Positions 1-60,560 of a DNA stretch of 64,000 bases are shown here, one piece after another. Location: positions 1 through 64,000 of IMG/VR virus record IMGVR_UViG_3300045988_149282; one strand, 5' to 3'. The notes under the pieces were generated by a model that worked only from the letters and a program-made list of their open reading frames with translations, made no database searches and was not told the DNA's origin. Both the position numbers and the translations under genes were made by a program. The stretch is from a virus (taxonomy: Duplodnaviria > Heunggongvirae > Uroviricota > Caudoviricetes). Position 1 is the first letter of the stretch; each line of letters starts with the position of its first letter.

Positions 1-154
1 CCCCAACCAAAGCCAGCAATGCTGGCTTAATTTCATCTTTAGCCGCAGGGAAGAGCCTGCATATCGCTCATGCACCTGATCAATATGCTTTGTAGCCGTT
101 TTCTTACTGGTATTATTTACGCCATTAAGAAAATAAGTTGTTTACGGAGTTGTG

Positions 155-994: not shown

Positions 995-1120
995 ACCAGC
1001 CAATGGCGCGTAACCCGCGCCATTTTCCCCAACCCGTAAACAAGTTGTTTTATGCCTCTCCTACGTTGCGATAATAACACCAACAAGAAAACAAGTTATT
1101 AACGCAGTGAGGAAACGCAC

Positions 1121-1402
1121 ATGACCGATTTCACCATCTCCCCGAAAGAAGAAAACGTATGGCTGGAATCCTGGCTTGACCTGTCGCCGGCCGAGCAGAA
1201 AGAAATGGATCACGTCGAACCGGACGAACAAACCAGCTCCCGCTTCTTCCATTATCAGGATAGCGTTTATGACATTGCCGATTTCATGCGCGATGACCGC
1301 TTCCCGGAATGGCACGCCGGCTATCCACTGAATGCCTTCGCTATGCTGATGATCCGCGTGACAGATTCAGGCGACGCCATCGACATCGGATTACTTCATT
1401 GA
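1121..1402 (+). CDS. hypothetical acidic small protein (93 aa)
   Basis: ORF with GAGGA RBS; preceded by the conserved AACAAGTTGTT-type motif (1037-1100). Confidence 0.5.
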   Translation: MTDFTISPKEENVWLESWLDLSPAEQKEMDHVEPDEQTSSRFFHYQDSVYDIADFMRDDRFPEWHAGYPLNAFAMLMIRVTDSGDAIDIGLLH

Positions 1403-1464
1403 GAGGGGAGGGCCACCGATGCTGGTGGCCATCAATTACCACCTGCTTTCCCGCAGGCTAAAAA

Positions 1465-1551
1465 CACCCACCTCTTACCGCCAGGCTACCGAAGCACCCA
1501 CCTGTTCCCGTCCGGCTACCGAAGCACCCACCTGTTCCCGTCCGGCTACCG
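1465..1551. repeat. tandem direct repeats, ~3 copies of a 30-bp unit (iteron-like)
   Basis: CACCCACCTGTTCCCGTCCGGCTACCGAAG repeated head-to-tail (two near-identical copies plus one diverged, and a more degenerate copy at ~1438-1464) in the intergenic region. Confidence 0.7.
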
Positions 1552-1637
1552 CAACTTTCCACTTTGACGCCTTATTCGTACAACGATAATTAACACCAAC
1601 AAGAAAACAATTTGTTATTTACGATAAGGAATTAATC

Positions 1638-4184: not shown

Positions 4185-4709
4185 TTAAAATGGAAGGATT
4201 CGTTCAACCCAATCGAAGAAAACAAGTATTTTTCTGCCGTCTTCTAACTTAAGAGTGACCTGGCAAGCATCAACGCCTCTTGACACCCCTTCAATTTCAC
4301 GACCGTCTGCCATGTAGACCCTTATAGATTGGTCGTTTTGATAAGCCTTGCGACATATCGCAAAAAAGTCACGGCGTGATGGCTGATTGTCAACATAGTC
4401 TGGATGTATTGTTAGCCTACCTTTGAACTCGCGAGCAATGCCATCGATTACACCTGATTCAATTGTGCTAATGCGCTCAAGTGGGAGTCTTATACGATTT
4501 TCTTTATCATATGGAAGCGGGCATAAATCTAGCTTATTGCGGGAAGGCATTGTCCCCTGAACGTACATGCAAAACACCTGACCGTCTTCAAGCGTGACTC
4601 TTACAGGAATGTTGTTCTTCCGCCAGAACATAAGTATGTTTTCAGCATGTTCGTAGTCTCGCGGCCAGACTTCAGCCGGTATGCCGTAGGTGATGTCCGA
4701 TGTTCTCAT
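4185..4709 (-). CDS. hypothetical cytoplasmic protein (174 aa)
   Basis: Minus-strand ORF; start overlaps the stop of the upstream gene (ATGA); hairpin terminator downstream at ~4148-4173. Confidence 0.55.
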   Translation of the reverse strand: MRTSDITYGIPAEVWPRDYEHAENILMFWRKNNIPVRVTLEDGQVFCMYVQGTMPSRNKLDLCPLPYDKENRIRLPLERISTIESGVIDGIAREFKGRLTIHPDYVDNQPSRRDFFAICRKAYQNDQSIRVYMADGREIEGVSRGVDACQVTLKLEDGRKILVFFDWVERILPF

Positions 4710-5479: not shown

Positions 5480-5758
5480 TTACGGCAGTTTGCTTAGAAT
5501 TTGCTCTAAATCTTCCTTTGTCATATTAGAGTTCTCATAGATGCGCATGATTTTCTCACGAGCCTTAGCAGAGACTCCAACGGCAGATGAAACTTTGTCA
5601 AATTCAGCCATTGTCATCGCTTCCAGAATGGTATTGATAACTTCAGCCTTAGACATTTTGATGTTTTTTTCTTTTAGTTTCATTTGAAACTTTCCAAGTT
5701 TGTCATTGGCCTTATCGGACAATGCCACCTGACAATAAGTTGTTTTCTTTTCGCTCAT
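5480..5758 (-). CDS. hypothetical small protein (92 aa)
   Basis: Minus-strand ORF starting 2 nt after the helicase stop; hairpin downstream at ~5397-5425. Confidence 0.5.
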   Translation of the reverse strand: MSEKKTTYCQVALSDKANDKLGKFQMKLKEKNIKMSKAEVINTILEAMTMAEFDKVSSAVGVSAKAREKIMRIYENSNMTKEDLEQILSKLP

Positions 5759-7320: not shown

Positions 7321-7402
7321 AAACCTCTTTCCTTAGTGCCTTTTGTATGTTATTTGGCTATTATAATAAGTAAGTGATTACTTAGTGGATTGTAGCAATA
7401 AA

Positions 7403-8083
7403 ATGGACGTAAAAATCACGATTTTGCAGGTTGATGTTGCCAACCTTCGCCCGAATACCTGGAACACCAATTCGGTTGGTGCGCAGAATTTCGAAAAACT
7501 GAAAGGTTCTATCGAAAAATTGGGCTTTTTTAAGCCAATTTTGGCTCGTGAGCTTGAAGATGGATTTTTTGAAATCCTCGGCGGCGAACATCGCTGGCGT
7601 GCTGCTATTGAGCAAGGAATTTCAACGGTTCCTGTGCTTTCTGTGGGCAAAATTAGCGATGTCGTGGCAAAACAGATGTCACTGGTGGACAACGAGCGAT
7701 ACGGTGAAGACGACCAAATCGCATTGCAACGCTTCATTGAAGAAATTCAGTCAGAACTTGACTATCAACTGTCTGAAATCGCCCCGTATGACGACGAAAT
7801 CTCGATGGTTTTAGCAAAAGAGGCGGCAATCGACCTTGAAGCACTGGAGGCGTTGTCTCGTGGTAGTGATGAGCCTGTCGATACCGACAAACGAGAGAAA
7901 ACCGAACGTGTGGGTGCGGAACATCAGACCATGCGCTTCAAAGTAACTTTCGATGCGTCAGATCGTGTTGCAGAAACTATAAAAAACATCATCAAAGAGC
8001 AGGCTATTAACACCGGTAATGAAATGGAGAACGCTGGTGAGGCTCTGGTGTGGCTGGTCGACTACTACAAGGAGCGTATGTAA
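7403..8083 (+). CDS. ParB-like nuclease domain protein 1
   Basis: ParB/Srx N-terminal domain signature (...FEILGGEHRWRAAIEQGISTVPVL...); ORF track 7385 (GTG), first ATG at 7403. Confidence 0.75.
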   Translation: MDVKITILQVDVANLRPNTWNTNSVGAQNFEKLKGSIEKLGFFKPILARELEDGFFEILGGEHRWRAAIEQGISTVPVLSVGKISDVVAKQMSLVDNERYGEDDQIALQRFIEEIQSELDYQLSEIAPYDDEISMVLAKEAAIDLEALEALSRGSDEPVDTDKREKTERVGAEHQTMRFKVTFDASDRVAETIKNIIKEQAINTGNEMENAGEALVWLVDYYKERM

Positions 8084-8751
8084 TGACCAAAAAGTTTGAA
8101 ATCGTATATCGCGACCCGGCAGATCTTATTCCCTATGAGATGAATGCCAAAAAGCATGATGAACAGCAGATCAGAGATCTGGCCGCAGCCATTAAAAAGC
8201 GCGGATTTGACCAGCCAATTACGGTCGATAAGAACGACGTAATTATTACTGGCCACGGCCGCCGTGAGGCTGCAATTTTTGCTGGACTTGAGCGCGTACC
8301 GGTTATTGTTCGTGATGATCTGAGTGATGACGAGGTACGTGCAAAGCGCCTTGAAGATAACCGACTTGCCAGCATTGATTACGATGCAATTAAGCTACAG
8401 AAAGAGCTTGAGTCGCTTGTTCTGGACGATATCGAGGTTTTCGGCTTCGAAGAGCGTGAGTTGAATGTTCTCGTTGGCAGTATGACAGAAGAAATGGACA
8501 CCGACTCGCTAGTTATCGATCTTGGCGAAGAAACTAAACGACAGAAGGATGAACACACCGAGATCAGTCGTGAAGTTGCAGCGGAAGAAGTACGTGTTGT
8601 CGACGTATTGGGCTTTAAAACGCTTCCTGCTGGCTCTGCCATTGTTGTTGGTGATTTGCTTGCCCACATGGAAGAAATGACGGGAGAAAGCGGGGTAGAC
8701 GCATTTGTGGCATATGCGGAGAAGATCTCTTCCGGGGAGATGGCTGCATGA
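8083..8751 (+). CDS. ParB-like nuclease domain protein 2
   Basis: ParB box (VIITGHGRREAAIFAGLERVPVIV); start overlaps the upstream stop (TAATG) with AGGAG RBS; acidic C-terminal half. Confidence 0.75.
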   Translation: MTKKFEIVYRDPADLIPYEMNAKKHDEQQIRDLAAAIKKRGFDQPITVDKNDVIITGHGRREAAIFAGLERVPVIVRDDLSDDEVRAKRLEDNRLASIDYDAIKLQKELESLVLDDIEVFGFEERELNVLVGSMTEEMDTDSLVIDLGEETKRQKDEHTEISREVAAEEVRVVDVLGFKTLPAGSAIVVGDLLAHMEEMTGESGVDAFVAYAEKISSGEMAA

Positions 8752-10309: not shown

Positions 10310-10576
10310 ATGACGTTAACCGATAAACAAAAGGACATCATCAAAACGCTCAATCTCGGTTATGAGCGAGGTCATTTACTTGATCTGGACGAATTGCTTG
10401 AAGTTTTGCCGTACAAGACAACCAAGCAAAGTATCCAGTTCTCAATTCGCGCTCTGATAAAAAAGGGGCTGGTGGAGAAAGGGCATACGCGCCAACGCAG
10501 TGACAATCGCTATCACCGCCGAACTCTTGGGTTAACTACTTTAGGTCGAGCCAAAGCGAAGTTACTGGTGATGTAA
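10310..10576 (+). CDS. small basic protein, possible winged-helix DNA-binding protein (88 aa)
   Basis: ORF with AAGGA RBS; basic C-terminus; followed by the 55-bp palindrome at 10601-10655. Confidence 0.4.
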   Translation: MTLTDKQKDIIKTLNLGYERGHLLDLDELLEVLPYKTTKQSIQFSIRALIKKGLVEKGHTRQRSDNRYHRRTLGLTTLGRAKAKLLVM

Positions 10577-10690: not shown

Positions 10691-10733
10691 AGAAAACAAG
10701 TTGGTTAGCAGAAGCAGTAAACAAGTTGTTTTA
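10691..10733 (+). promoter_or_regulatory. two copies of the conserved palindromic motif AGAAAACAAGTTGTT (candidate operator/promoter element)
   Basis: AGAAAACAAGTTGGTT (10691-10706) and TAAACAAGTTGTTTTA (10718-10733), ~40 nt upstream of the 10772 start; the same motif recurs at 1037-1052, 1087-1100, 1603-1616, 44991-45006, 47921-47936 and (degenerate) ~60528-60545. Confidence 0.5.
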
Positions 10734-10771
10734 GAGCGCATGGACGCGCTCTGTGTGTTTTAGAGGGATCT

Positions 10772-11404
10772 ATGACGGTCGAAAAAGACGAGGTAAAAAC
10801 TCGCCTGACACCAGCGGAGTGGGCCGAAGCTGAAGCCAAATGGACGTCAGGCGAATATACACTCTCAAAGCTGGAGGAAGAGTACGGCATTCGTCGTGAA
10901 ACACTCTCCAGACATTTCAAAAAGCGAGGATTAGAGAAAGGCGCGGACTCTGTTGGGAAGATGGTTCGTGAGTCTCTTAAATCTGACGCAGAGCTTCGCG
11001 CTAAAGCCCGTGCGGAAAAGATAGAAGAACGTCGTACACGTTATGACGGCTGGGCGTATGCGTTGGGGCAGATGGTGATGGTCGAAGTCACTACGGCCAA
11101 ACGTGAGAGTAAGCCTTTAGGGGCGATTGAGGATTCTCTCAAGAGCTTACAGAGAGCCAGTAATACCCTTGCAAAATGCTTTGAAGTTTCGTCCAAAGCA
11201 TTGGGCATGGATCATGCGGAAAATGACGAGGAAGAAATTCCGAACCTGGTATTTGGTGAGCTTACGCCTTCCCAGGTGGCGAAATTACGTCAGGAAGACG
11301 ACGAGCCTGAAATCATCGATGACGAATTGCTTGAGACGTTGGAAGAAGAAGCTCTAAGCGAATTTGATGCGACAGATGATGGAAGTGAAGGGGAGGACGA
11401 ATAA
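10772..11404 (+). CDS. terminase small subunit (candidate)
   Basis: Immediately upstream of and abutting the large terminase gene; HTH-like N-terminus and acidic C-terminal tail; positional inference. Confidence 0.55.
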   Translation: MTVEKDEVKTRLTPAEWAEAEAKWTSGEYTLSKLEEEYGIRRETLSRHFKKRGLEKGADSVGKMVRESLKSDAELRAKARAEKIEERRTRYDGWAYALGQMVMVEVTTAKRESKPLGAIEDSLKSLQRASNTLAKCFEVSSKALGMDHAENDEEEIPNLVFGELTPSQVAKLRQEDDEPEIIDDELLETLEEEALSEFDATDDGSEGEDE

Positions 11405-44135: not shown

Positions 44136-44893
44136 TTGGTCAGGCGAACAGATTAATCCCTGAAATAGAAGACTACAGCAAGGTCTTGTCTGAAATGCCG
44201 AGAGCGACGAGAATTATCGCTCTCGGTGAGTTCTATTTTATCTCCCGAGGTTTCGATCTAATTCGATTTACCGAATACGAGCTTGTTGATTCGGCCTATG
44301 AACGCTGTATTGTTGGCGAGTGTCTTGAGTCATGTGATCCTGATTACCAAGAGCAGGAAGTTAAGCGACTCAAACGTGCTGGTTACACACCTCTTGAGAT
44401 AGGAGCAGAAATTGAATCCTACAAGTTGCATGTGGGGCAGCCAGTCCAAACAGTCTTCCGCGTGGCCTACTGCGAGTTTCCAATCAAGGATAAATCTGGA
44501 GTAAAAGTCAGCGCCAAGCAGATTAGAGGGGTTTTTACTCATGCTGATTATATGGGATTAGGCATCGCAAGTTTTGCTTACCTTTATCTCGTAGATAAGT
44601 ATCAGTACTTGGTTTGCGATACGTTACAGACGGTAAAAGGCGCAACTCTTTGGGCTGTGAGTATGCGCAAACATGGACTGGTCGAAATTTACGATACGAA
44701 GAACGAAAATTTTATAGAGGAATTGGGTGAGGATGCCTGTGGCGTAAGTGGTTTTATTCCGTGGGATATCGGTAAGTCTGACGGAGGCCAGATGCGAAGA
44801 CGTGAAGAGTGGGGGACTAATAAAATCAATCTCACCCCAGGTGCTTGTACTCATATAGTGAACATTCTGAGTAAACGATCTATGAATCAATAA
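44120..44893 (+). CDS. hypothetical protein (257 aa)
   Basis: ORF overlapping the upstream gene end; strong terminator follows (44893-44916). Confidence 0.5.
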   Translation: MAPSLIGQANRLIPEIEDYSKVLSEMPRATRIIALGEFYFISRGFDLIRFTEYELVDSAYERCIVGECLESCDPDYQEQEVKRLKRAGYTPLEIGAEIESYKLHVGQPVQTVFRVAYCEFPIKDKSGVKVSAKQIRGVFTHADYMGLGIASFAYLYLVDKYQYLVCDTLQTVKGATLWAVSMRKHGLVEIYDTKNENFIEELGEDACGVSGFIPWDIGKSDGGQMRRREEWGTNKINLTPGACTHIVNILSKRSMNQ

Positions 44894-44916
44894 ACCCGCT
44901 ACGGCGGGTTTTTTGT
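44893..44916 (+). terminator. Rho-independent terminator
   Basis: AACCCGC-TACG-GCGGGTT hairpin followed by a T-run at the end of the 44120..44893 ORF. Confidence 0.65.
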
Positions 44917-44990
44917 TATTAAGCCCACCTATGTACCTATCATTAAACCTTTACACCGCAGCCGTAGGCATTTAGGCTATATCACATATA

Positions 44991-45006
44991 AGAAAACAAG
45001 TTGTTT
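44991..45006 (+). promoter_or_regulatory. AGAAAACAAGTTGTTT motif upstream of parA
   Basis: Exact motif 36 nt upstream of the parA ATG; palindromic core AACAA-G-TTGTT. Confidence 0.5.
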
Positions 45007-45041
45007 CAGACGATAATTATATACGCAAAGGGAACTCTCCA

Positions 45042-45710
45042 ATGACCAAGATCTTTGTGGTTGGCGGCACAAAGGGCGGGCCTGGCAAATCCACCGTTGC
45101 CCAGCAAATTGCCGTTTGCCTGAAAGTCAAAAAGAAGAAGAAGGTTTATATTACCGATATAGATATTCAGCGCACGACAACGAGCTGGTGTGAAGACCGT
45201 CGACAGAACGAAGACCTTGAGCTGATTCCTTTTGCATACGTTCAGGATGACATCATTAAGCACCTAAAATCGCTTCAGGGTAGAGCTGAGTTTGTAGTGG
45301 TAGATGCTGGTGGCTTCGACTCCGAAATTCAGCGACAAGCGATGCTGATGGCTGACGTTATCATTATCCCGCTGCGTCCTAAGCGTCGTGATTTGAAATC
45401 TTTACGTGACATCGATCCTATTATCGACAATGTTCGCAATGTAAACGATAAAGTGAAGGTCCGCGCGGTCATGAACCAGTGCCCGGCTTTGCCATCACAA
45501 GTGTCTCGCATTCTGGCGGCTAAAGAGATTGTTGAGACGTTTGGCATCGAGTCTGCGCCAGTCAATCTATATAACCGCAACGTCTATGATGATGCGGAAG
45601 AGTCTGGTCGCTCTATCTTTGAAATGACCGGTAGCGAGCGCGACAAAAAGGCGGAAGCCGAGTTTGAAGAATTTGTAGATTATCTGTTGAGTCTGGAGGA
45701 AGAAGAATAA
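45042..45710 (+). CDS. parA: ParA/Soj-family partition ATPase
   Basis: Deviant Walker A (GGTKGGPGKST) typical of ParA/MinD; size ~222 aa suggests a type Ib ParA; conserved upstream motif AGAAAACAAGTTGTTT at 44991-45006. Confidence 0.85.
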   Translation: MTKIFVVGGTKGGPGKSTVAQQIAVCLKVKKKKKVYITDIDIQRTTTSWCEDRRQNEDLELIPFAYVQDDIIKHLKSLQGRAEFVVVDAGGFDSEIQRQAMLMADVIIIPLRPKRRDLKSLRDIDPIIDNVRNVNDKVKVRAVMNQCPALPSQVSRILAAKEIVETFGIESAPVNLYNRNVYDDAEESGRSIFEMTGSERDKKAEAEFEEFVDYLLSLEEEE

Positions 45711-46069
45711 TGTCCATGAAAATGGGTGACCTAGCAAAGCGCAAAGAGCCTGATGCACCGGCTAAGAACACAACTCCTTTGCGCCAACCAGTCAGACCAC
45801 AGGGACGCCCGACTCGTGGCAAAGAGAAAATTAAAAGCCGCACAATGTCACTGGAGGACGAATACTTCGAACTGCTGGAGATGATGAAGTTCATCCCTCG
45901 CTTCGAGAAGTTCACTCGTTCTGACGTGATTCGAGCAGCCATTTTCCATCTGGCAGAGAAGTCACCGCAGGAAATCGAGGACATCGTGAAATTGAATGAG
46001 GCGATCACCGCTGCCGATGTCACGATGCGTACCGATGAAATCAAACGAGAGTTGATGAAGAAAGGTTAA
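45710..46069 (+). CDS. partition partner protein (candidate centromere-binding protein, ParG/RHH-like)
   Basis: Start overlaps parA stop (TAATG); basic disordered N-terminus with structured C-terminal region, as expected for a small ParA partner. Confidence 0.5.
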   Translation: MSMKMGDLAKRKEPDAPAKNTTPLRQPVRPQGRPTRGKEKIKSRTMSLEDEYFELLEMMKFIPRFEKFTRSDVIRAAIFHLAEKSPQEIEDIVKLNEAITAADVTMRTDEIKRELMKKG

Positions 46070-46073
46070 AAAT

Positions 46074-46104
46074 CATGCATTGGCGCGTACATTGCGCCAA
46101 TGCA
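46074..46104. terminator. bidirectional terminator between convergent genes
   Basis: 12-bp perfect inverted repeat ATGCATTGGCGC / GCGCCAATGCAT with 7-nt loop between the partition operon (+) and the GIY-YIG gene (-). Confidence 0.6.
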
Positions 46105-46121
46105 TAACTACAGTGTCAGCT

Positions 46122-46889
46122 TTATGCCGCGCTAACACTATGTTCAGTCCTAACCACCCCAACCTTCACAAAAGGGCTACCGTAGCTTGGTGGCTTCTTG
46201 ATTAATTTGCCTACATACAGTTTTCTAATATGCTCATCGGCTATTCTGCCAACAAATTCATAACGTTTTGTGTCGGGGCCAAGAGCTATATCCCTTGTAA
46301 AGTACTGCTGAGAACCGGCTTTGACCCAGCATTCAATCTGATAAACTTCCATTATCAGCCCACCATATGTAGCGTAGGCATATTTGAGATTCTCGTCTCT
46401 TGGAACCTTTGCCCATACGCCACGCGTAGCTTCATATAATGCCAGAGCGGACATTCCTGACTTGTAGGTGCTGTTTAGCAGGAAGGCAAGACCGGCGTGC
46501 TCAGGAGCAATTTCAGTTTCCTCTTGCAGCACTAAGTGATGGTAGGCGTCCAGTGATATTCTGCCCATCATGGAACCACTTCCTCGTACCTTATTCGTAA
46601 GCTCTCCGACCCCCATAAGGTCGATGCATGTCGCCTCAACAAGTTTGGCTGTGGTTTCATCCATACCATGACGAAGTATATCTATGCCTAATTTTTTATT
46701 AGCCAAAAGTTCTTTGATCCGCATGGATTTGGGAGAGTCATCGGGATACTTGATGTGATCGAGACAACGAGTCGATTTGCCTTTTCCTATGTAAAACGGT
46801 CTTTTCATCTTGTCTTCTGTATCATAGAGACAGTAAACATAGTATTTAGCCTTATCCAATGATCTCGCGTATACCGATAAATCGTCCAT
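46122..46889 (-). CDS. GIY-YIG family nuclease (homing-endonuclease-like)
   Basis: N-terminal GIY-YIG-type motif (YYVYCLYD ... RPFYIGKGK ... R ... H); convergent with the partition operon and separated by a 12-bp-stem bidirectional terminator. Confidence 0.55.
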   Translation of the reverse strand: MDDLSVYARSLDKAKYYVYCLYDTEDKMKRPFYIGKGKSTRCLDHIKYPDDSPKSMRIKELLANKKLGIDILRHGMDETTAKLVEATCIDLMGVGELTNKVRGSGSMMGRISLDAYHHLVLQEETEIAPEHAGLAFLLNSTYKSGMSALALYEATRGVWAKVPRDENLKYAYATYGGLIMEVYQIECWVKAGSQQYFTRDIALGPDTKRYEFVGRIADEHIRKLYVGKLIKKPPSYGSPFVKVGVVRTEHSVSAA

Positions 46890-47000
46890 TATTGCATCTC
46901 TTTGCTACTGACTAATGCGTTCTATTTTACACATAAGTTTTTAATCAATTTAACAGGCTCAAAGTGTAGAGCTTCTGGGCGTCTAAGACGACAAGTTATG

Positions 47001-47055
47001 CCTGCTTCTGTATATATAAATAATAAGTAACTTATTAAATATATACGGAAGCAGG
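47001..47055. repeat. 55-bp palindromic element, copy 2 (exact duplicate of 10601..10655)
   Basis: Identical 55-mer located between the GIY-YIG gene and the replication module. Confidence 0.8.
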
Positions 47056-47171
47056 TCTTTTAAAAGACACCACCAGAACAACTCCCTTCCGTTTCCACTT
47101 CCAAAAACTGCCACCAGTCGCTATCATCCGCTCATTGTGATAAGTAAGTAACTACCTACCAGGTGAGCCAC

Positions 47172-47912
47172 ATGAGCCAAATCTTTTTCGATACCATCGA
47201 CAACGACCAGTACGACTTCATGACAGAGTGGAATACCGCTGTTATGGACAAGTGGGTCGCTGAAAACATTGGTTTGTCGCGCTGTAAAGACGAGGCTGAA
47301 CTCTTCGAGACGAAGTGGTTTGATTACCGCGACATGCATCCTCTCATGGCCACCTGTCTTTTTACGGAGGCATACAAACGTCAGTACTCAAATATCATGC
47401 TGACGCACGGTCGCGAACACTTTGAAACAGCTCCGTTCACCACCGGGTTAAAACGCCTGCCTTATCAGGAGTTGTCGACTGCCAATAAAACGTCGCTATG
47501 GAAAGCACGCCAGTTTGCGGATCGCTATTGCTGCTCATACGACTACTTTATCTCCACCGTTCTTTCCGCAGCTGCACGACGGCTGTGGGACAAGCTGCCG
47601 CGCCCACAGCATTTATGGCAGCCAGAACTGATTGAGATATTTGAAGAGAAATTAGCCAGACGCGCAACAACCCGTCTGGATGACTCTCTGGTTAGCTTTA
47701 AGCATATGGGAGACATGCAGTTCAACCCGATTCAGGAAAGCTATTTTGAGTGGATTCTGGAGCGTTTGCGCACCATCCCTCGCAGCAAGCGCATACGCGC
47801 AATTTTCTCCGCTATCTGGCTAATGGAAATCGTTCCAGAGCGCCTTATTTCCGCCCACTTTCCAGAAGAACTGGAAGAAGCACGGCGGTTTATTGATCCC
47901 CTATCTAATTAA
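47172..47912 (+). CDS. hypothetical protein (~246 aa), replication-module associated
   Basis: ORF track 47163 (GTG), first ATG 47172; immediately upstream of the DnaB-like helicase. Confidence 0.5.
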   Translation: MSQIFFDTIDNDQYDFMTEWNTAVMDKWVAENIGLSRCKDEAELFETKWFDYRDMHPLMATCLFTEAYKRQYSNIMLTHGREHFETAPFTTGLKRLPYQELSTANKTSLWKARQFADRYCCSYDYFISTVLSAAARRLWDKLPRPQHLWQPELIEIFEEKLARRATTRLDDSLVSFKHMGDMQFNPIQESYFEWILERLRTIPRSKRIRAIFSAIWLMEIVPERLISAHFPEELEEARRFIDPLSN

Positions 47913-47920
47913 CTAATACT

Positions 47921-47936
47921 AGAAAACAATTTGTTT
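47921..47936 (+). promoter_or_regulatory. AGAAAACAATTTGTTT motif upstream of the DnaB-like helicase gene
   Basis: Motif variant 20 nt upstream of the helicase ATG. Confidence 0.5.
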
Positions 47937-54863: not shown

Positions 54864-54938
54864 GATGGTGTAGCTCAGCGGTAGAGCAGTTGGCTGTTAA
54901 CCAACTGGTCGGTGGTTCGAATCCACCCACCATCGCCA
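54864..54938 (+). tRNA. tRNA-Asn (anticodon GTT)
   Basis: Hand-folded cloverleaf: 7-bp acceptor GATGGTG/CACCATC, D-arm GCTC/GAGC, anticodon loop CTGTTAA, T-loop TTCGAAT, encoded CCA. Confidence 0.8.
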
Positions 54939-54943
54939 ATTTA

Positions 54944-55030
54944 GGGGAGTTAGTCCGTAGAGGTAGCGGTGTAGACTGTAAATCTACTGTCATGGCGACT
55001 CGGGTGGTTCGACTCCATCACTCCCCACCA
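54944..55030 (+). tRNA. tRNA-Tyr (anticodon GTA), class II with long variable arm
   Basis: Acceptor GGGGAGT/ACTCCCC, anticodon stem GTAGA/TCTAC with loop CTGTAAA, long variable arm, T-loop TTCGACT, encoded CCA. Confidence 0.75.
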
Positions 55031-55034
55031 AATT

Positions 55035-55110
55035 GCCGGTTTAGCTCAGTTGGTAGAGCGCCTGCCTTGTAAGCAGGATGTCAGCGGTTCGAGTCCGTTA
55101 ACCGGCACCA
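55035..55110 (+). tRNA. tRNA-Thr (anticodon TGT)
   Basis: Acceptor GCCGGTT/AACCGGC, D-arm TAGCTCAGTTGGTAGAGC, anticodon loop CTTGTAA, T-loop TTCGAGT, encoded CCA. Confidence 0.8.
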
Positions 55111-55784: not shown

Positions 55785-56339
55785 ATGAAGAAGTGCCATC
55801 TCAATATTTTCGCATCTCTAATAATTGCGTTAACACTAACAGGGTGTAACGAATCTGAAATAGATGAATTAACGTTAATAGGCAAAGATAAAAGTGAACT
55901 TGAACAAAATTATAAAGCCCAATTCAAGAAGCTAACACAAAATGTTGAAGTGTTTATTCTTCAAGATAAAAATAGTCCGACTGAAAAAGAACCGCATACG
56001 AATGGCAACCTGATCGACGGAAAAGTCGAAATGTCATTAACCAGTAATGTTGGTAAGTATACATTCATCCAGATAAGTGAAATGCTGACAAAGGAGTACG
56101 GAAAACCCGTTGCTACAAAAGATCGTGTTTTTAACAGAGAAGCAGTATCTGGCATGGACTGTATTGAAACTAAAACTTGTGGAGCTGGTAAATATTATGA
56201 AATCTTTCGAGGGAAGGATAGATTGATTATGGTGTCAAACGGTGCCGGTCTTTTACACGAAAAGGAAGGTGTAACACTACTCACCATCACCGATAAACAA
56301 TTTAAATTTTCTCGTTTAGAAGAAGATAAAATAAAATAA
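55785..56339 (+). CDS. lipoprotein (184 aa), accessory/moron gene
   Basis: Signal peptide plus lipobox (LTLTGC); AT-rich, K-rich coding sequence unlike the surrounding genome; flanked by 29-bp direct repeats. Confidence 0.65.
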   Translation: MKKCHLNIFASLIIALTLTGCNESEIDELTLIGKDKSELEQNYKAQFKKLTQNVEVFILQDKNSPTEKEPHTNGNLIDGKVEMSLTSNVGKYTFIQISEMLTKEYGKPVATKDRVFNREAVSGMDCIETKTCGAGKYYEIFRGKDRLIMVSNGAGLLHEKEGVTLLTITDKQFKFSRLEEDKIK

Positions 56340-56549
56340 TGACAGGGGCGTATACGCCCCTATCTAAAATTTGACATTAAACATATATTGCATCTGGTAT
56401 CAGCAATTTTTGTGCGCTATGTAAGTCCTTACCTGCAATCAGTCTCATAAATATCGGATTTTACGTAGCGTACCATCGTTACAGCAAGCATCAAATTATT
56501 CACTGACATTTATGCGCTGAAAACAGCGTTACTTACCGTAAAATAACAA

Positions 56550-56578
56550 TTTTCAGCGCAAAATTTAAAGAGGCTTCG
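56550..56578. repeat. 29-bp direct repeat, right copy, flanking the lipoprotein cassette
   Basis: TTTTCAGCGCAAAATTTAAAGAGGCTTCG; degenerate copy of the terminator-containing left repeat. Confidence 0.65.
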
Positions 56579-56590
56579 AATCTGCACAAC

Positions 56591-57919
56591 CTATTGTGCG
56601 TACTCGCCCAATTTTAATGTTTCACGCTTATATTCATCAACTATCTCACATGATTTAATATAGATATGGCACAATAGGTTATCACTATCATCATTATCGT
56701 TTATTGCCATAAGTGCCAACTTTTTCTCATATTCATCGATCGCATCACTCAACTGATCACCTGTAATTACATCTGACTCACTCGAGAAATATAACTGCCC
56801 AAGATTTACCGCATTTTTTCCAGTTTTTCTTTGCTCTATGTAATTTTTAATCATATCCTTCACATCCTTTTCACTACTCAGTATTTCACTTTCGAAATGG
56901 ACATGCTCTGAAATCGACGCGACTCTGCAACCGATCAAACGATGAATATAGTCATCAATAGACGTAACACTATCATTAGCTTTTTTTAGTGCTTCATCAA
57001 AAATGCTCTTTACCTCATTTGGCAAATTTTTAAAATAATCATCAATTAAACCAGATAATGGTGTTTGGTAGTTCATTAATACCGATGAAGCAACTTGCGG
57101 ACGACGAGCCACCCAGATTTCTTTGACTTCAACTTGAGAATAATATTCCTTAATCACGTTCCAAAAGTATTTTAACATCTTGGTTTTAAATATTTTATCA
57201 AATCTATCCTTTATAAATAGCTCTACTTCAGGCATGCTTGAATAAGCATCATCAAAGAATATTTCATCTTTGAAAAAATCATATTTATTTAATAAAGCAT
57301 ACAGTTTTTTTGAATCCAGCGGTTCACGAGAATCGATGTCCAATCCAAAAACTGCAATAACCAACTTCATTTGCGGTGGTATTTTTCCACTCAATTGAAT
57401 AATATATTCCATTTTTTCATCAAAACAATTTCCATCTATGTAAAATCGGTTATCTACATAGACTAATATATTGGTAATATGTTTTATGTACTGAATAACC
57501 TCATGCTTTCTTACCAATGGATAAAAAAACGAATGCATTTCATTTTTATTAAATTGTTTTTTTGTCTGTTCAATGATTGGTATGACATTATTGTACAACT
57601 CATCATGCTGATTTAATAAAGTGTCAAACCATTCTTTGAAAGAATTTTTTCTCATCTCAATCAATGAATCGGTAGTTATCCTAACGGCCTCCAGTGCTGC
57701 CTTTGCACTTTTTCTTGCTTCATAGGCGTTCCACGCTGTTGCACAAAAAGCCGCTGTCGTTATAAAACTACTCAATACAGCAATTTGGTCTGTAACCTTC
57801 CAATCTTGAAATGGCTCAAGTAGTAAACCTAAAAACAAAATTATTATGGAAAACATTAGAATTGCAACAGAAATAAAAACAGGCATGTATGCTCTCGTAC
57901 TTACCATTGTTAGTTGCAT
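56591..57919 (-). CDS. membrane-anchored protein (442 aa; two N-terminal TM helices plus large cytoplasmic domain), accessory gene
   Basis: AT-rich minus-strand ORF; TM helices VFISVAILMFSIIILFLGLLL and IAVLSSFITTAAFCATAW; GATAGGTAAGTA-type motif on the minus strand upstream (57981-58002). Confidence 0.6.
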   Translation of the reverse strand: MQLTMVSTRAYMPVFISVAILMFSIIILFLGLLLEPFQDWKVTDQIAVLSSFITTAAFCATAWNAYEARKSAKAALEAVRITTDSLIEMRKNSFKEWFDTLLNQHDELYNNVIPIIEQTKKQFNKNEMHSFFYPLVRKHEVIQYIKHITNILVYVDNRFYIDGNCFDEKMEYIIQLSGKIPPQMKLVIAVFGLDIDSREPLDSKKLYALLNKYDFFKDEIFFDDAYSSMPEVELFIKDRFDKIFKTKMLKYFWNVIKEYYSQVEVKEIWVARRPQVASSVLMNYQTPLSGLIDDYFKNLPNEVKSIFDEALKKANDSVTSIDDYIHRLIGCRVASISEHVHFESEILSSEKDVKDMIKNYIEQRKTGKNAVNLGQLYFSSESDVITGDQLSDAIDEYEKKLALMAINDNDDSDNLLCHIYIKSCEIVDEYKRETLKLGEYAQ

Positions 57920-58058
57920 TAAATATTAACTAAATTAAGTTGTGATTAACAGGCAAGTTTACGATGTATTGCAGACATTAAATAGGTTTTTACTTACCTA
58001 TCTTTTATAGTAATATTTATTTTCTGGTTAAGTAACACATAATTATTATGAGGTAAAC

Positions 58059-58514: not shown

Positions 58515-59618
58515 ATGAAAAATAGCTTTGACAGAGCACGCGCTGCGGAGAACACCTCAAAAGAGGCGATTGAGTATCTCGAAAGAGCATCTCAAATGCA
58601 GGCCGTTATGATCTCGCAGGTCAGCAATGACATGAGATTCTCGGACGCATTCATGTTATTCACTCGCTTATCTCTGCTGATAACAAGACGTCGGCCAGAG
58701 ATCGCTGTTCATTGTATTTTGATACATGTTTTGCCGCACATTGCCGATGTAAAAGTAAGTGACATTAATAGGTTCATGGTGAACCAACTGGTCAACCCAC
58801 TAATACTGGATGGCAAAATTGTTATGGGCCGCCGCGTTTTCTCTCTGATGAAGCAGTTCCTTAGCTGGTGCGCCTTCCAGGGGATGATAGACGTGTCACC
58901 GTTAAACGATATGTCACTAAACAAAGTTGCCGGTGGCGCAAAGCCTACACCTCGCGAGCGGAAGCTGACCGACGCAGAGGTATGGGTGTTCTGGAATATA
59001 TGGGACTACTTCAATGTGTGCGCTGGTACAAAATGGGCGGCCAGGCTGTGTCTTGTATCCGCAAGACGACCTGACGAAGTACTGCGGGCTAAAAAAAGTG
59101 AGTTCAATCTTAAGCGTGGGGTTTGGAATCAAGGCAAGAGGAACAAATCTGCCCGTGAGCATTCTCTGCCTTTAAGCTCATTAATGCGCACTTGTATTGA
59201 AGAGTTGTTCGAATATGGTAAAGACAGCCAGTGGCTCGTGCCTTCGAATAAAAAAATCGGGAAAGACCTTCCTATGTCTAAAGTGGCAATAGCCCAGGCA
59301 TTACGTCGTATTCTGGAACGACCAGAACTGATGGAGCTTGAGCCATTTACACCCCGAGATTTGCGCCGTACTGCGCGTAGTTACTTCCCAGCATTAGGCA
59401 TAAGCCAGGAGGTATCACGTAAAATCATGAACCACAGTCTTGAGGGGATAGATCGGGTCTACGACCGGCACGATTATATGGACGAGATGCGAGACGCCTT
59501 AGAAAGTTTCTCGACGTACATCGCATCAATCGTAGAGCAACCGGATTTAGACGAAATTGACCACAAATTTAAGGGAGATCGTCTATCAACAGAGCTTATT
59601 CGTGTAAATTTTTCATAG
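58515..59618 (+). CDS. tyrosine recombinase (phage integrase family)
   Basis: Catalytic-domain motifs: ARLCLVSARRPDEV (box I Arg), FTPRDLRRTARSY (H/RxxR region), RVYDRHDY (putative catalytic Tyr). N-terminal start uncertain. Confidence 0.75.
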   Translation: MKNSFDRARAAENTSKEAIEYLERASQMQAVMISQVSNDMRFSDAFMLFTRLSLLITRRRPEIAVHCILIHVLPHIADVKVSDINRFMVNQLVNPLILDGKIVMGRRVFSLMKQFLSWCAFQGMIDVSPLNDMSLNKVAGGAKPTPRERKLTDAEVWVFWNIWDYFNVCAGTKWAARLCLVSARRPDEVLRAKKSEFNLKRGVWNQGKRNKSAREHSLPLSSLMRTCIEELFEYGKDSQWLVPSNKKIGKDLPMSKVAIAQALRRILERPELMELEPFTPRDLRRTARSYFPALGISQEVSRKIMNHSLEGIDRVYDRHDYMDEMRDALESFSTYIASIVEQPDLDEIDHKFKGDRLSTELIRVNFS

Positions 59619-59999
59619 AGACTTTATGGCCTCAACAACCTTTTGTGATGCGCCTTTCTCTTTACCGAATCGCTCGTTATATGCAGCAAGAACCTGTTTT
59701 TCGTCCTCGTTAAGAGGAGCAGTGCCTTCTTTGTATAAAAATGCTGCGAGTTCGGGTTGGCGTTCTTCCAGCACCATCATCATAAGACGACTTGGCTCAA
59801 TGCCCAGTGCCAGCGCCAGCGGACGAACCTTATCGATAGGCAAAGGAATTTTGCCGCTTTTAATTAAAGAAAGGTTGTTGGCGTTTTTATACCCAATTGT
59901 TTTGGCTATCTGGGCCTGGCTCATAGGTGAGGATTCAATCAACCCTGCGATAAAAGCAGCATAGCGACTTTCTATAAATTCAATCTTGTTGTCAGACAT
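59613..59999 (-). CDS. XRE-family helix-turn-helix transcriptional regulator
   Basis: HTH_XRE-like segment (SQAQIAKTIGYKNANNLSLIKSGK); convergent with, and overlapping by a few nt, the recombinase gene end. Confidence 0.7.
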   Translation of the reverse strand: MSDNKIEFIESRYAAFIAGLIESSPMSQAQIAKTIGYKNANNLSLIKSGKIPLPIDKVRPLALALGIEPSRLMMMVLEERQPELAAFLYKEGTAPLNEDEKQVLAAYNERFGKEKGASQKVVEAIKSL

Positions 60000-60249
60000 T
60001 GTTACAACCTTTGCGCGTTCAATTCTCTCTGGTAAGTGCTTACCGATATTACATCAAAGGTTAGGGTTGTAAAGCTATTATCATTTTTTCGATAGGCACT
60101 TAAAAGACCGGTTAAAGGCCATTGCACGGAGAAAAATTGGCCCAAAACAGGTAAGAAAATTAACTTGCATATGATATGAATGTATTCAGTATTGATATAA
60201 ATTTTAGTAGTATTCCTTACCATAGTATAAGTTAGAATGGATTGATTGA

Positions 60250-60462
60250 ATGAACACCACTATTTCCAGCCTAATCGCTCTTGAGATCGGACACGTACAG
60301 AAATTAGCTGATGAGTGTGTAGCTGACATCCTCACCGATCTACCGAATGAGCAGATTCAGGTTGGTGTGAATGACACAACTGGCTTTATATTCGAACTTA
60401 ACAACAAACGCTTCACGCTTCTCAATATCGGCTCCGGGTCTTTAGCCGTCAGAATCTGTTAA
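60250..60462 (+). CDS. hypothetical small protein (70 aa)
   Basis: ORF only; weak support. Confidence 0.3.
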   Translation: MNTTISSLIALEIGHVQKLADECVADILTDLPNEQIQVGVNDTTGFIFELNNKRFTLLNIGSGSLAVRIC

Positions 60463-60560
60463 CCCCTCTTCTCCCTGCGCGAATGGCTTAGTTCCCTGTT
60501 CGCGCAGTGCTACATTAAACACACTAGTAAATAATTTGTTTTCATAACAAAGGATTAGCC

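What the first reader, a model, noticed from the sequence alone, without database searches (positions are those of the whole stretch)
1037..1616. Recurrent palindromic motif AGAAAACAAGTTGTTT upstream of early, partition and replication genes, including a duplicated ~35-bp upstream block
The motif (palindromic core AACAA-N-TTGTT) occurs 16-40 nt upstream of the start codons of the 1121, 1638, 10772, parA (45042), DnaB-like (47956) and vWA (60561) genes. Upstream of 1121 and 1638 it sits inside a duplicated block (ATAATAACACCAACAAGAAAACAAGTTATT at ~1071-1100 versus TAATTAACACCAACAAGAAAACAATTTGTT at ~1587-1616). A short palindrome this close to ribosome-binding sites looks like an operator for a dimeric regulator, or an mRNA-level translational control site, coordinating a regulon.
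Basis: seen in the sequence. Interest (0 to 1): 0.6.

Follow-up and report, generated by a model that had tools for sequence, protein, structure and literature searches.

The report
Shared operator of phage-plasmid promoters
A 16-base near-palindrome sits just after the promoter of about ten operons in this E. coli SSU5-type phage-plasmid (about twenty in a whole genome). It is most likely the common docking site of one element-encoded repressor that ties early, replication, partition and packaging genes together.

Summary
AGAAAACAANTTGTTT (13-bp palindromic core AAACAA-N-TTGTTT plus a one-sided AGA flank) is 15- to 100-fold over-represented. It lies upstream of start codons far more often than chance allows, and it is oriented with the gene.

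The window is an E. coli SSU5-like phage-plasmid. The same core is kept in relatives whose proteins are only 50-70% identical, and in Yersinia pMT1. No searched paper describes it.

The sites belong to a conserved roughly 90-bp promoter cassette. One copy lies 10-11 bp after an (extended) -10 element. Often a second copy lies exactly 51 bp upstream, over the -35 region. Tandem copies are 25 bp apart. Leader RNAs show no stable fold. In a published lysogen transcriptome, most genes behind the motif are silent.

Best reading: a DNA operator for an element-encoded repressor.

The binder is unresolved:
- **My favoured candidate (about 35%)** is the small protein encoded after ParA (45710-46069). 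Its own promoter carries the window's only perfect site.
- **The neighbouring FljA-family protein** has a tandem Hfq-like fold, so a translational-operator reading remains a live, more novel rival.

Verdict: a new member of a known kind.

The parts
128..143 (+). Motif copy AGAAAATAAGTTGTTT (1 mismatch), 8-11 nt before the start of ORF 152/155-466
1035..1050 (+). Upstream ('U') copy CGTAAACAAGTTGTTT. Perfect core at 1038-1050, just after the terminator of ORF 527-994. It lies 51 bp upstream of the next copy, over the -35 region of the 1121 promoter.
1067..1075 (+). Extended -10 element TGCGATAAT of the promoter for ORF 1121-1402
   Evidence: read; conserved in cassette alignment; T at -14 in 71% of sites
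1086..1101 (+). Downstream ('D') copy AGAAAACAAGTTATTA, 10 nt after the -10 element and 19 nt before the ATG at 1121
1564..1590 (+). Promoter TTGACG-N15-GATAAT for ORF 1638-2120
   Evidence: read; not reported by the strict 16-18 nt spacer scan
1602..1617 (+). D copy AGAAAACAATTTGTTA, 20 nt before the ATG at 1638
10691..10731 (+). Two tandem copies 25 bp apart (10691-10706 and 10716-10731) ahead of the small terminase gene 10772-11404
10732..10753 (+). GC-rich hairpin plus T-run (terminator-like) between the tandem copies and the terS start
44950..44978 (+). parA promoter TTTACA-N17-TAGGCT, conserved across lineages
44991..45006 (+). The only perfect copy in the window, AGAAAACAAGTTGTTT, 12 nt after the -10 element and 35 nt before the parA ATG
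45042..45710 (+). Small (222 aa) ParA/MipZ-type ATPase with no N-terminal DNA-binding extension (type Ib-like)
45710..46069 (+). 119-aa protein overlapping the parA stop codon; my favoured candidate binder. It has invariant segments KIKSRTMS(L/I)EDE and FTRSDVIRAAI and a disordered N-terminus MGDLAKR.
   Evidence: expressed in lysogen
47921..47936 (+). D copy AGAAAACAATTTGTTT, 9 nt after the upstream stop codon and 19 nt before the DnaB-like ATG
   Evidence: RNA step-up 6 to 21 at this point in Cyrano
60526..60541 (+). D copy AGTAAATAATTTGTTT, 19 nt before the CobT/vWA ATG
4185..4709 (-). FljA-family protein (PF03614) with two tandem Hfq/Sm-like domains; the rival candidate binder, acting on RNA
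59613..59999 (-). No motif in its control region 60000-60250, which holds GGTAAGTGCTTACC instead.
10310..10576 (+). Weak LexA-type winged-helix hit; 78% conserved in a distant relative; at background expression in a lysogen.

Best explanation
The motif is a DNA operator.

**Architecture.** Each copy consists of a 13-bp palindrome AAACAA-N-TTGTTT, extended on the promoter-proximal side by AGA. Often a weaker cAACAA unit lies 8 bp further upstream.

- The main copy starts 10-12 bp after the -10 element. It therefore covers roughly +5 to +20 of the transcript start.
- In many promoters a second copy lies exactly 51 bp upstream, over the -35 region. The two extended sides face the -10 element.
- Other promoters carry two tandem copies 25 bp apart.

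**Mechanism.** An element-encoded protein binds these sites and blocks RNA polymerase. This holds about ten operons in this window (about twenty in a whole genome) at low level in the plasmid-prophage state. The operons include:
- small early genes;
- the DnaB-like helicase;
- CobT/vWA;
- nrdB;
- small terminase;
- the partition operon.

**Shown:** the sites, their architecture, their conservation, and the silence of most target genes in a lysogen.

**Inferred:** that a protein binds DNA there, and which protein it is.

**Favoured binder (about 35%).** This is the 119-aa protein encoded directly after the small ParA (45710-46069). It would autoregulate the par operon and, through the dispersed copies, silence the other promoters. 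It might also use the copies as scattered centromere sites. Target genes would then fire on entry into a new cell and shut down as the protein accumulates.
For: **Real, non-random and positioned.**
- Enrichment.
- Bias toward positions upstream of start codons.
- The AGA flank is present on exactly one side in 65 of 104 non-redundant sites and never on both. It is on the gene's strand.

**Tied to promoters.**
- T at -14 (the last base of a -10 hexamer) occurs in 71% of sites.
- TGnGATAAT elements are visible in the site alignment.
- The parA promoter TTTACA/TTGTCA-N17-TAGGCT is conserved across lineages, with the motif behind it.
- RNA-seq in Cyrano steps up at such sites: 6 to 21 before dnaB, and 46 to 114 before CYRAN_117.

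**DNA-level signs.**
- Neighbouring copies are spaced at 51 bp (18 non-redundant pairs) or 25 bp (11 pairs), and hardly anything else.
- Upstream copies sit between the preceding terminator and the -10 element, outside the transcript.
- Core conservation is mirror-symmetric.
- Leader RNAs fold no better than shuffles, z from -0.8 to +0.9.

**Repressive role.** In the LF82 lysogen (background 9.8), genes behind the motif read:
- terS 7.1
- CobT 7.8
- C58 5.7
- C85 7.0
- C87 7.1
- C101 7.5
- C108 5.7
- C110 6.7
.

**Conservation.**
- OW968253.1 has 15 exact cores, although its proteins are 33-82% identical (mostly 50-70%) to the window's.
- pMT1 keeps its cores intact in flanks that are 69-80% identical.
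- In IMG/VR, only SSU5-like contigs carry several copies.

**For the ParA-partner protein as binder.**
- The only perfect site in the window is at its own promoter.
- ParA is small, with no DNA-binding extension.
- There is no repeat array near the operon that could serve as operator or centromere.
- The par operon is on in the lysogen (50/89/55) while the other targets are off. That fits autoregulation, not control by a master repressor.
- The segment KIKSRTMS..EDE...FTRSDVIRAAI is invariant across lineages that are otherwise 48% identical, matching an invariant motif.
Against: - No binding data exist, and transcription start sites are inferred rather than measured.
- The consensus promoter scan did not report these promoters. 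Their spacers or -35 elements are non-canonical.
- The cassettes are paralogous, so the fixed 51-bp spacing may be partly inherited rather than selected.
- A one-sided AGA flank is odd for a symmetric dimer on DNA.
- pMT1 lacks this protein yet keeps the sites, although that loss may be recent.
- Every main copy also lies in the mRNA leader, 5-10 nt before the ribosome-binding site, so an RNA-level role fits those copies equally well.
Confidence: 0.6

Rival explanations
1. Translational operator. The FljA-family protein (4185-4709, minus strand) binds the motif in the 5' leaders of the mRNAs and blocks ribosome loading. This would mirror Salmonella FljA acting on fliC mRNA, giving a regulon-wide RegA-like control.
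For: - The protein matches PF03614 at E=5e-81.
- It is a core gene of the group, present in 831 plasmids.
- The literature states that FljA-type proteins block fliC mRNA translation (PMC2652032).
- All main copies lie in the sense orientation in the leader, typically 19-20 nt before the start codon.
- The one-sided AGA flank suits a strand-specific target.
- The protein is expressed in the lysogen at log2 7-8 in growing cells.
- The Salmonella fliC leader holds CAAGTTGT 19 nt before its ATG.
Against: - Scored with the motif matrix, the fliC leader reaches -5.6 against a training minimum of 9.7. About 0.17% of random positions score as well.
- Upstream copies over the -35 region are outside the transcript.
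- The exact 51-bp and 25-bp spacing and the mirror-symmetric core are unexplained at RNA level.
- The protein is only 34-36% identical between lineages that share an identical motif.
- The leaders have no structure.
- The gene itself has no motif in front of it.
Confidence: 0.15
2. The XRE-type prophage repressor (59613-59999, minus strand) binds the motif as the master lysogeny operator.
For: - It has an HTH domain.
- It is well expressed in the lysogen, at 96.
- Its helix-turn-helix (QAQIAK..G..NANN.SLIKSG) is invariant between lineages that are 45% identical overall. That would fit an invariant site.
Against: - There is no motif in its own divergent control region, 60000-60250.
- That region holds GGTAAGTGCTTACC instead. 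The distant relative has TTACTTAC repeats at the same place.
- Both are related to a second dispersed palindrome family, TAAGTA..TACTTA, which is the more natural target.
- A master repressor with a perfect operator on the par promoter would shut off partition when it is needed, yet the par operon is on.
Confidence: 0.1
3. The 88-aa winged-helix-like protein (10310-10576), or another factor of the lytic phase, binds the motif after induction. It would shut off early promoters, or activate them from the upstream copy.
For: - It is the most conserved candidate, 78% identical in the distant relative.
- It gives a weak full-length match to the LexA DNA-binding domain, E=0.07.
- It has a wing-like sequence.
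- It is encoded next to the double copy ahead of terS.
Against: - It is at background in the lysogen, 7.8, when the target promoters are already silent.
- Most copies lie downstream of the -10 element, where activators do not work.
Confidence: 0.1
4. No dedicated binder. The motif is simply part of a conserved promoter/leader cassette spread by duplication and recombination, like the promoter-early stem-loop cassettes of T4-type phages. Alternatively, it is a promoter element read by RNA polymerase itself.
For: - Many copies sit in a recognisably homologous roughly 90-bp cassette in front of small ORFs of a plastic region.
Against: - The core also occurs behind unrelated promoters (parA, dnaB, CobT, nrdB, terS) whose flanks share nothing else.
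- The core is invariant where flanks are 69-80% identical.
- It is invariant across lineages with 50-70% protein identity.
- In the parA promoter its distance from the -10 element changes (3 versus 12 nt) while the core is kept.
Confidence: 0.05

Closest known systems
Phage-plasmid P1 C1 repressor and its dispersed operators (from my own knowledge)
   Same: This is also a phage-plasmid. One short operator is scattered over the genome at many promoters, including that of a DnaB-type helicase (ban in P1). Some sites occur in pairs that can loop.
   Different: The P1 operator is a 17-bp asymmetric site, ATTGCTCTAATAAATTT, read by a 283-aa monomer. P1's par operon is not under C1. Here the core is a 13-bp palindrome, and the par promoter carries the best copy.
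Omega of pSM19035 and ParG/parH of TP228: small partition DNA-binding proteins that are also transcriptional repressors (from my own knowledge)
   Same: - A small protein is encoded after a small ParA.
- It represses its own operon.
- In the omega case it also represses several other promoters, coordinating copy number, partition and stability.
- Sites are built from short 7-8 bp units in direct and inverted orientation. Compare [cAACAA]GA[AAACAA]N[TTGTTT].
   Different: The known systems use arrays of 7-12 units next to the operon. Here there are single or paired sites at about 20 dispersed promoters and no array. The RHH fold of the candidate is not demonstrated.
KorB/KorA global regulon of IncP plasmid RK2 (from my own knowledge)
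   Same: The operator is a 13-bp palindrome with an odd centre. It is present at about a dozen promoters for replication, partition and establishment genes. Some copies lie about 40 bp upstream of the start site.
   Different: KorB is a large ParB-family CTPase. The two ParB_N proteins of this element (7385-8751) are at background in the lysogen. Most copies here lie downstream of the -10 element.
Dispersed SopB centromere sites of phage-plasmid N15 (from my own knowledge)
   Same: This is also a phage-plasmid. Partition-protein binding sites are scattered in promoter regions of phage genes and influence their expression.
   Different: N15 has four sites and a type Ia SopAB system. Any centromere function of the present sites is untested.
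FljA-fliC translational repression in Salmonella; T4 RegA
   Same: A homologue of FljA is encoded here. The main copies lie in leaders just ahead of ribosome-binding sites, in many early and DNA-metabolism genes.
   Different: The fliC leader does not match the motif matrix. Copies outside transcripts and the fixed DNA spacing do not fit.
PeSL promoter-early stem-loop cassettes of T4-type phages (from my own knowledge)
   Same: Short, repeated terminator-plus-early-promoter cassettes flank small ORFs in a plastic genome region.
   Different: PeSLs are discussed as recombination modules. Here the conserved element inside the cassette is an operator-like palindrome, which is also found at non-cassette promoters.

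Membership tests
Dispersed repressor operator set (P1 C1-like / plasmid global regulon) | One specific short sequence recurs far above chance at many promoters of one replicon | tested here: met
   about 20 sites in Cyrano; 15 exact cores in OW968253.1
Dispersed repressor operator set (P1 C1-like / plasmid global regulon) | Sites overlap the core promoter or start site so that binding would block RNA polymerase | tested here: inconclusive
   The -10 elements lie 10-12 bp upstream and the second copy lies over the -35 region. Start sites are inferred, not measured, and the strict promoter scan does not report these promoters.
Dispersed repressor operator set (P1 C1-like / plasmid global regulon) | Target genes are repressed when the regulator is present | tested here: inconclusive
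   Most genes behind the motif are at background in the LF82 lysogen. There is no comparison without the regulator.
Dispersed repressor operator set (P1 C1-like / plasmid global regulon) | A cognate protein binds the site | not testable with these tools
   Needs EMSA, footprinting or ChIP
Type Ib partition system operator/centromere (ParG, omega type) | Small Walker ParA without an N-terminal DNA-binding domain | tested here: met
   222 aa; MipZ/AAA_31/CbiA/ParA hits starting at residue 2-6
Type Ib partition system operator/centromere (ParG, omega type) | Small partner gene directly downstream, with a flexible N-terminal tail | tested here: met
   119 aa; its start overlaps the parA stop codon. 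Residues 1-25 have low confidence or are disordered, and MGDLAKR is conserved.
Type Ib partition system operator/centromere (ParG, omega type) | Partner protein has a ribbon-helix-helix fold | tested here: inconclusive
   [not shown]
Type Ib partition system operator/centromere (ParG, omega type) | Array of short repeats next to the operon serving as operator and centromere | tested here: not met
   There is only one motif copy upstream of parA and no repeat array in 44500-47200. The copies are dispersed instead.
FljA-type translational operator | FljA-family (PF03614) protein encoded by the element | tested here: met
   E=5e-81; Hfq-like tandem fold
FljA-type translational operator | Target lies in the mRNA 5' leader near the ribosome-binding site | tested here: inconclusive
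   True for promoter-proximal copies. Not true for upstream copies of 51-bp pairs.
FljA-type translational operator | Target resembles the one characterised FljA target, the fliC leader | tested here: not met
   It shares only CAAGTTGT. Matrix score is -5.6 against a family minimum of 9.7.
KorB-type (ParB-family) global operator | ParB-family protein with an HTH, expressed in the plasmid state, binding a 13-bp palindrome | tested here: inconclusive
   Two ParB_N proteins are encoded, but both are at background in the lysogen. Binding is not testable.
Known RNA family | Match to an Rfam model | tested here: not met
   Only three tRNAs in the window

The most novel reading that the evidence does not exclude
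The motif is read on RNA by the FljA-family protein, which the model shows to be a tandem Hfq-like (Sm-fold) protein. SSU5-type phage-plasmids would then run a regulon-wide translational shut-off of about twenty early, replication and partition leaders through one motif. The Salmonella phase-variation repressor FljA would be a domesticated member of this phage regulator family.
Probability: 0.13. Interest if true: 0.8.

Novelty: new member of a known kind. Interest (0 to 1): 0.5.

Why it matters
SSU5-like phage-plasmids are very common in clinical Enterobacteriaceae. About 800 records in the plasmid collection match, across Klebsiella, E. coli, Enterobacter and Salmonella pHCM2-type plasmids, and Yersinia pestis pMT1 is a relative. 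They carry resistance and virulence genes.

None of the literature searches I ran (motif string, SSU5 repressor, SSU5 induction or transcriptome) returned a paper describing how they control the plasmid-versus-phage decision. This motif, together with the second palindrome family, gives a concrete wiring diagram to test. It names which promoters are co-controlled, where the operators are, and a short list of candidate regulators.

If the partition protein is the binder, partition, copy number and early-gene silencing are coupled through one protein. That would explain a burst of early expression on entry into a new host.

Tried and rejected
1. **fliC leader as a copy of the motif.** I remembered the fliC sequence, and the genome scan confirmed the shared octamer. 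The matrix score shows it is not a family member.
2. **Presence/absence genetics to pick the binder.**
   - All candidates are core genes of the group.
   - pMT1 lacks the ParA-partner protein but keeps the sites, probably a recent loss.
   - The IMG/VR and metagenome scans returned only SSU5-like contexts.
3. **Co-variation in a distant relative.** The motif is unchanged in OW968253.1, so no co-variation is available.
4. **92-aa protein 5480-5758(-).** Its N-terminus looks ribbon-helix-helix by eye and it is highly expressed. However, its putative DNA-reading strand differs between lineages that share the motif. The 'site' at 5733 lies inside its coding sequence. It gives no Pfam support.
5. 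**CYRAN_98 'LexA-like' protein.** It is a UmuD'-like protein behind a LexA box, not a repressor.
6. **Host transcription-factor sites.** I could recall none that fits (memory only).
7. **RNA hairpin.** Leaders fold no better than shuffles.
8. **Rfam.** Only tRNAs were found.
9. **Structure and fold search of the 119-aa protein.** The result was uninformative.
10. **Original FljA papers.** They are not held in the library.
Full report
**What the window is.**
The first 6 kb match E. coli plasmids of about 110 kb at 94-98% identity. They also match phages Cyrano, CMS-2020a and PhiR41_1, and more distantly Salmonella phage SSU5. The window is therefore part of an SSU5-like phage-plasmid. GC content is 45-53% apart from one island, so the window is not AT-rich.

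**Checking the observation.**
The sequences and coordinates are as described.

| Measure | Observed | Expected |
|---|---|---|
| 16-mer, up to 3 mismatches, window | 18 | 1.02 |
| Core AAACAANTTGTTT, exact, window | 4 | 0.03 |
| Core, up to 1 mismatch, window | 8 | 0.27 |
| Core, exact, complete Cyrano genome | 9 | 0.07 |
| Core, up to 1 mismatch, Cyrano | 18 | 1.0 |

Using one mechanical criterion (SD plus start codon of an ORF of at least 45 aa within 45 nt), 6 of 8 window sites and 12 of 17 Cyrano sites precede a gene. The background is 9.3% (p=1.6e-5 and 1.4e-9). The distance from the motif end to the start codon ranges from 8 to 40 nt, with a mode at 19-20. Hits at 4217, 5733(-) and 49339(-) have 2-3 mismatches and lie inside coding or antisense sequence. 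I treat them as chance.

**Anatomy of the sites.**
I collected 104 non-redundant sites from the window, Cyrano, a distant Klebsiella relative and IMG/VR contigs.

- The 12 defined core positions are 93-100% conserved, and the conservation is mirror-symmetric.
- The 5' flank AGA is exact on one side in 65 sites and never on both. The site is therefore intrinsically one-sided, and the AGA side faces the gene's promoter.
- Upstream, T at -14 occurs in 71% of sites. This is the last base of a -10 hexamer.
- Many sites show TGnGATAAT, an extended -10 element, 10-11 bp before AGA.
- A weaker cAACAA-like unit lies 8 bp before the core.

The aligned sites reveal a conserved roughly 90-bp cassette:

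terminator of the preceding gene - GCCTT - AAACAANTTGTTT - TCTGCCTT - about 11 nt - TGnGATAAT - AA - 8 nt - AGAAAACAANTTGTTT - a few nt - SD - ATG.

The site at 1035 is the upstream copy of the first one.

Distances between neighbouring copies are almost only 51 bp (18 non-redundant pairs, plus 2 at 50 bp) or 25 bp (11 pairs). If transcription starts about 7 nt after the -10 element, the main copy covers about +5 to +20. The upstream copy is then centred near -38.

Other promoters (parA, dnaB, CobT, nrdB, terS) share nothing with the cassette except the motif. At parA, a promoter TTTACA/TTGTCA-N17-TAGGCT is conserved across lineages, with the motif 3 or 12 nt behind it.

**Conservation.**
Klebsiella plasmid OW968253.1 is syntenic, but its proteins are 33-82% identical to the window's, mostly 50-70%. 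It carries 15 exact cores in the same contexts. Yersinia pestis pMT1 keeps 7-8 copies with intact cores in flanks that are 69-80% identical to Cyrano. In a scan of IMG/VR, every contig with several copies was SSU5-like, and other contigs had single chance matches. Full-text searches for the motif, and for SSU5 regulation, found no description of it.

**Expression.**
The LF82/Cyrano lysogen RNA-seq table (PMC9928086, supplement) has a background median of 9.8.

| Gene behind a motif copy | Normalised reads |
|---|---|
| terS | 7.1 |
| CobT | 7.8 |
| CYRAN_58 | 5.7 |
| CYRAN_85 | 7.0 |
| CYRAN_87 | 7.1 |
| CYRAN_101 | 7.5 |
| CYRAN_108 | 5.7 |
| CYRAN_110 | 6.7 |
| nrdB | 12.9 |
| dnaB | 21 |
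| par operon (three genes) | 50 / 89 / 55 |
| CYRAN_111 | 25 |
| CYRAN_117 | 114 |

RNA steps up at motif sites inside apparent operons: CYRAN_31 at 6.2 to dnaB at 21, and uvsW at 46 to CYRAN_117 at 114. That fits a promoter just upstream of each site. So promoters with good -10 elements are silent in the lysogen, as expected for repressed promoters. The par promoter, which carries the best site, runs at a moderate level.

**DNA or RNA?**
I lean to DNA for four reasons.

- The upstream copies lie between a terminator and the -10 element, outside the transcript.
- The exact 51-bp and 25-bp spacing suggests cooperative binding on the double helix.
- Core conservation is mirror-symmetric.
- Seven leaders fold no better than shuffled sequence, z from -0.8 to +0.9. 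The exception is the terS leader, where the two copies pair with each other.

The caveat is that the cassettes are paralogues, so the spacing could be partly inherited.

**Who binds? Candidates in turn.**

   - It is expressed at 96 in the lysogen.
   - Its helix-turn-helix is invariant between distant lineages.
   - Its own control region has no motif. It has GGTAAGTGCTTACC, and TTACTTAC repeats in the distant relative.
   - These resemble a second dispersed palindrome family, TAAGTA-N2-TACTTA. That family lies 55-75 nt upstream of the ParB-like, structural and CobS-like genes.
   - I think XRE owns that family.
   - It is the most conserved candidate, at 78%.
   - It gives a weak LexA-type winged-helix match.
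   - It is at background in the lysogen.
3. *Two ParB_N proteins (7385-8751).* Both are at background in the lysogen.
4. *92-aa protein 5480-5758(-).*
   - It is highly expressed.
   - Its N-terminal strand differs between lineages that share the motif.
5. *FljA-family protein (4185-4709, minus strand).*
   - PF03614 at E=5e-81.
   - FljA-type proteins are reported to block fliC mRNA translation (PMC2652032).
   - This makes the translational-operator reading attractive.
   - However, the Salmonella fliC leader shares only the octamer CAAGTTGT. It scores -5.6 on the motif matrix against a family minimum of 9.7.
   - The protein is only 34-36% identical between lineages with identical motifs.
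6. *119-aa protein after ParA (45710-46069).*
   - ParA is small, with no DNA-binding extension. In such systems the partner protein is the autorepressor (established knowledge of type Ib partition systems).
   - The window's only perfect 16-mer sits at this operon's promoter.
   - No repeat array that could serve as operator or centromere lies near the operon.
   - The protein is expressed at 89 in the lysogen.
   - The segments KIKSRTMS(L/I)EDE and FTRSDVIRAAI are invariant across lineages that are otherwise 48% identical.
   - A perfect operator for a foreign master repressor on the par promoter would switch off partition exactly when it is needed. The observed moderate expression fits autoregulation instead.
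   - By eye the protein has a ribbon-helix-helix pattern, but no tool supports that.

**Commitment.**
The motif is a DNA operator of an element-encoded repressor (about 0.6-0.7). The ParA-partner protein is the most likely binder (about 0.35). It would act as autorepressor of the par operon and global silencer of the other promoters, possibly with the dispersed copies doubling as centromere sites. Target genes would be expressed on entry into a naive cell and shut down as the protein accumulates. This last step is pure inference, by analogy with KorA/KorB and omega.

**Comparison with known systems.**
It works like several known dispersed-site systems:

- the dispersed C1 operators of P1;
- the omega and ParG regulators;
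- the KorB operators of RK2;
- the scattered SopB sites of N15.

It is not a member of any of them by sequence. It fails one defining feature of type Ib centromeres, the repeat array next to the operon. The cassette organisation recalls the PeSL cassettes of T4-type phages. All of these comparisons rest on my own knowledge of those systems.

**Verdict.**
The finding is a new, undescribed member of a known kind of regulatory device in a clinically widespread element family, with an unresolved and testable question about the binder.

Noticed in passing
[not shown]
   Followed up: partly
window 7371, 14165, 19660, 26122, 54097, 62688 (14-mers TAAGTnnnnACTTA): A second dispersed palindrome family, TAAGTA-N2-TACTTA, lies about 55-75 nt upstream of the ParB-like, portal-region, tail and CobS-like genes. 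The distant relative OW968253.1 has the same half-sites with wider spacing (TAAGTAA-N4-TTACTTA, 12 copies). Related GTAAGT palindromes lie next to the XRE repressor gene (60032). This is probably a separate regulon, perhaps the XRE repressor's.
   Followed up: partly
window 1465-1551: A 30-bp tandem repeat (2.9 copies, 92% matches; unit CACCCACCTGTTCCCGTCCGGCTACCGAAG) lies between ORF 1121-1402 and the promoter of ORF 1638-2120. It looks iteron-like, but its function is unknown.
   Followed up: no
window 10732-10753: A terminator-like hairpin (AGAGCGC..GCGCTCT plus a T-run) lies between the double motif and the small-terminase start codon. It suggests that late-operon expression needs read-through or antitermination.
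   Followed up: no
window 47001-47055: Nested palindromes (17-nt arms, 94% complementary, 21 nt apart, with an inner AT-rich palindrome) lie in the gap between the GIY-YIG-like gene and ORF 47163-47912.
   Followed up: no
window 56001-58000: A low-GC island (0.34) holds a 442-aa ORF on the minus strand (56591-57919). This region differs from the corresponding part of phage Cyrano and is probably an accessory or defence insertion.
   Followed up: no
window 54864-55107: Three tRNA genes in a row. Cyrano annotates Asn, Thr and Ser tRNAs at the equivalent place.
   Followed up: no
L002 39278-39700 (phage Cyrano, outside the window): The gene annotated 'LexA-like peptidase S24' is a UmuD'-like protein that starts at the cleaved-form motif GFPSPAADY. 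A canonical LexA box, TACTGTATGTGTATACAGTA, precedes it. It is the third most expressed Cyrano gene of unknown role in the lysogen.
   Followed up: partly
window 5480-5758 (-): This 92-aa protein follows the UvsW-like helicase. Its N-terminus looks like a ribbon-helix-helix by eye, and it gives a weak PHROG 'transcriptional repressor' hit. Its Cyrano orthologue is strongly expressed in the lysogen (114 against a background of 9.8). It may be another regulator of the switch.
   Followed up: partly
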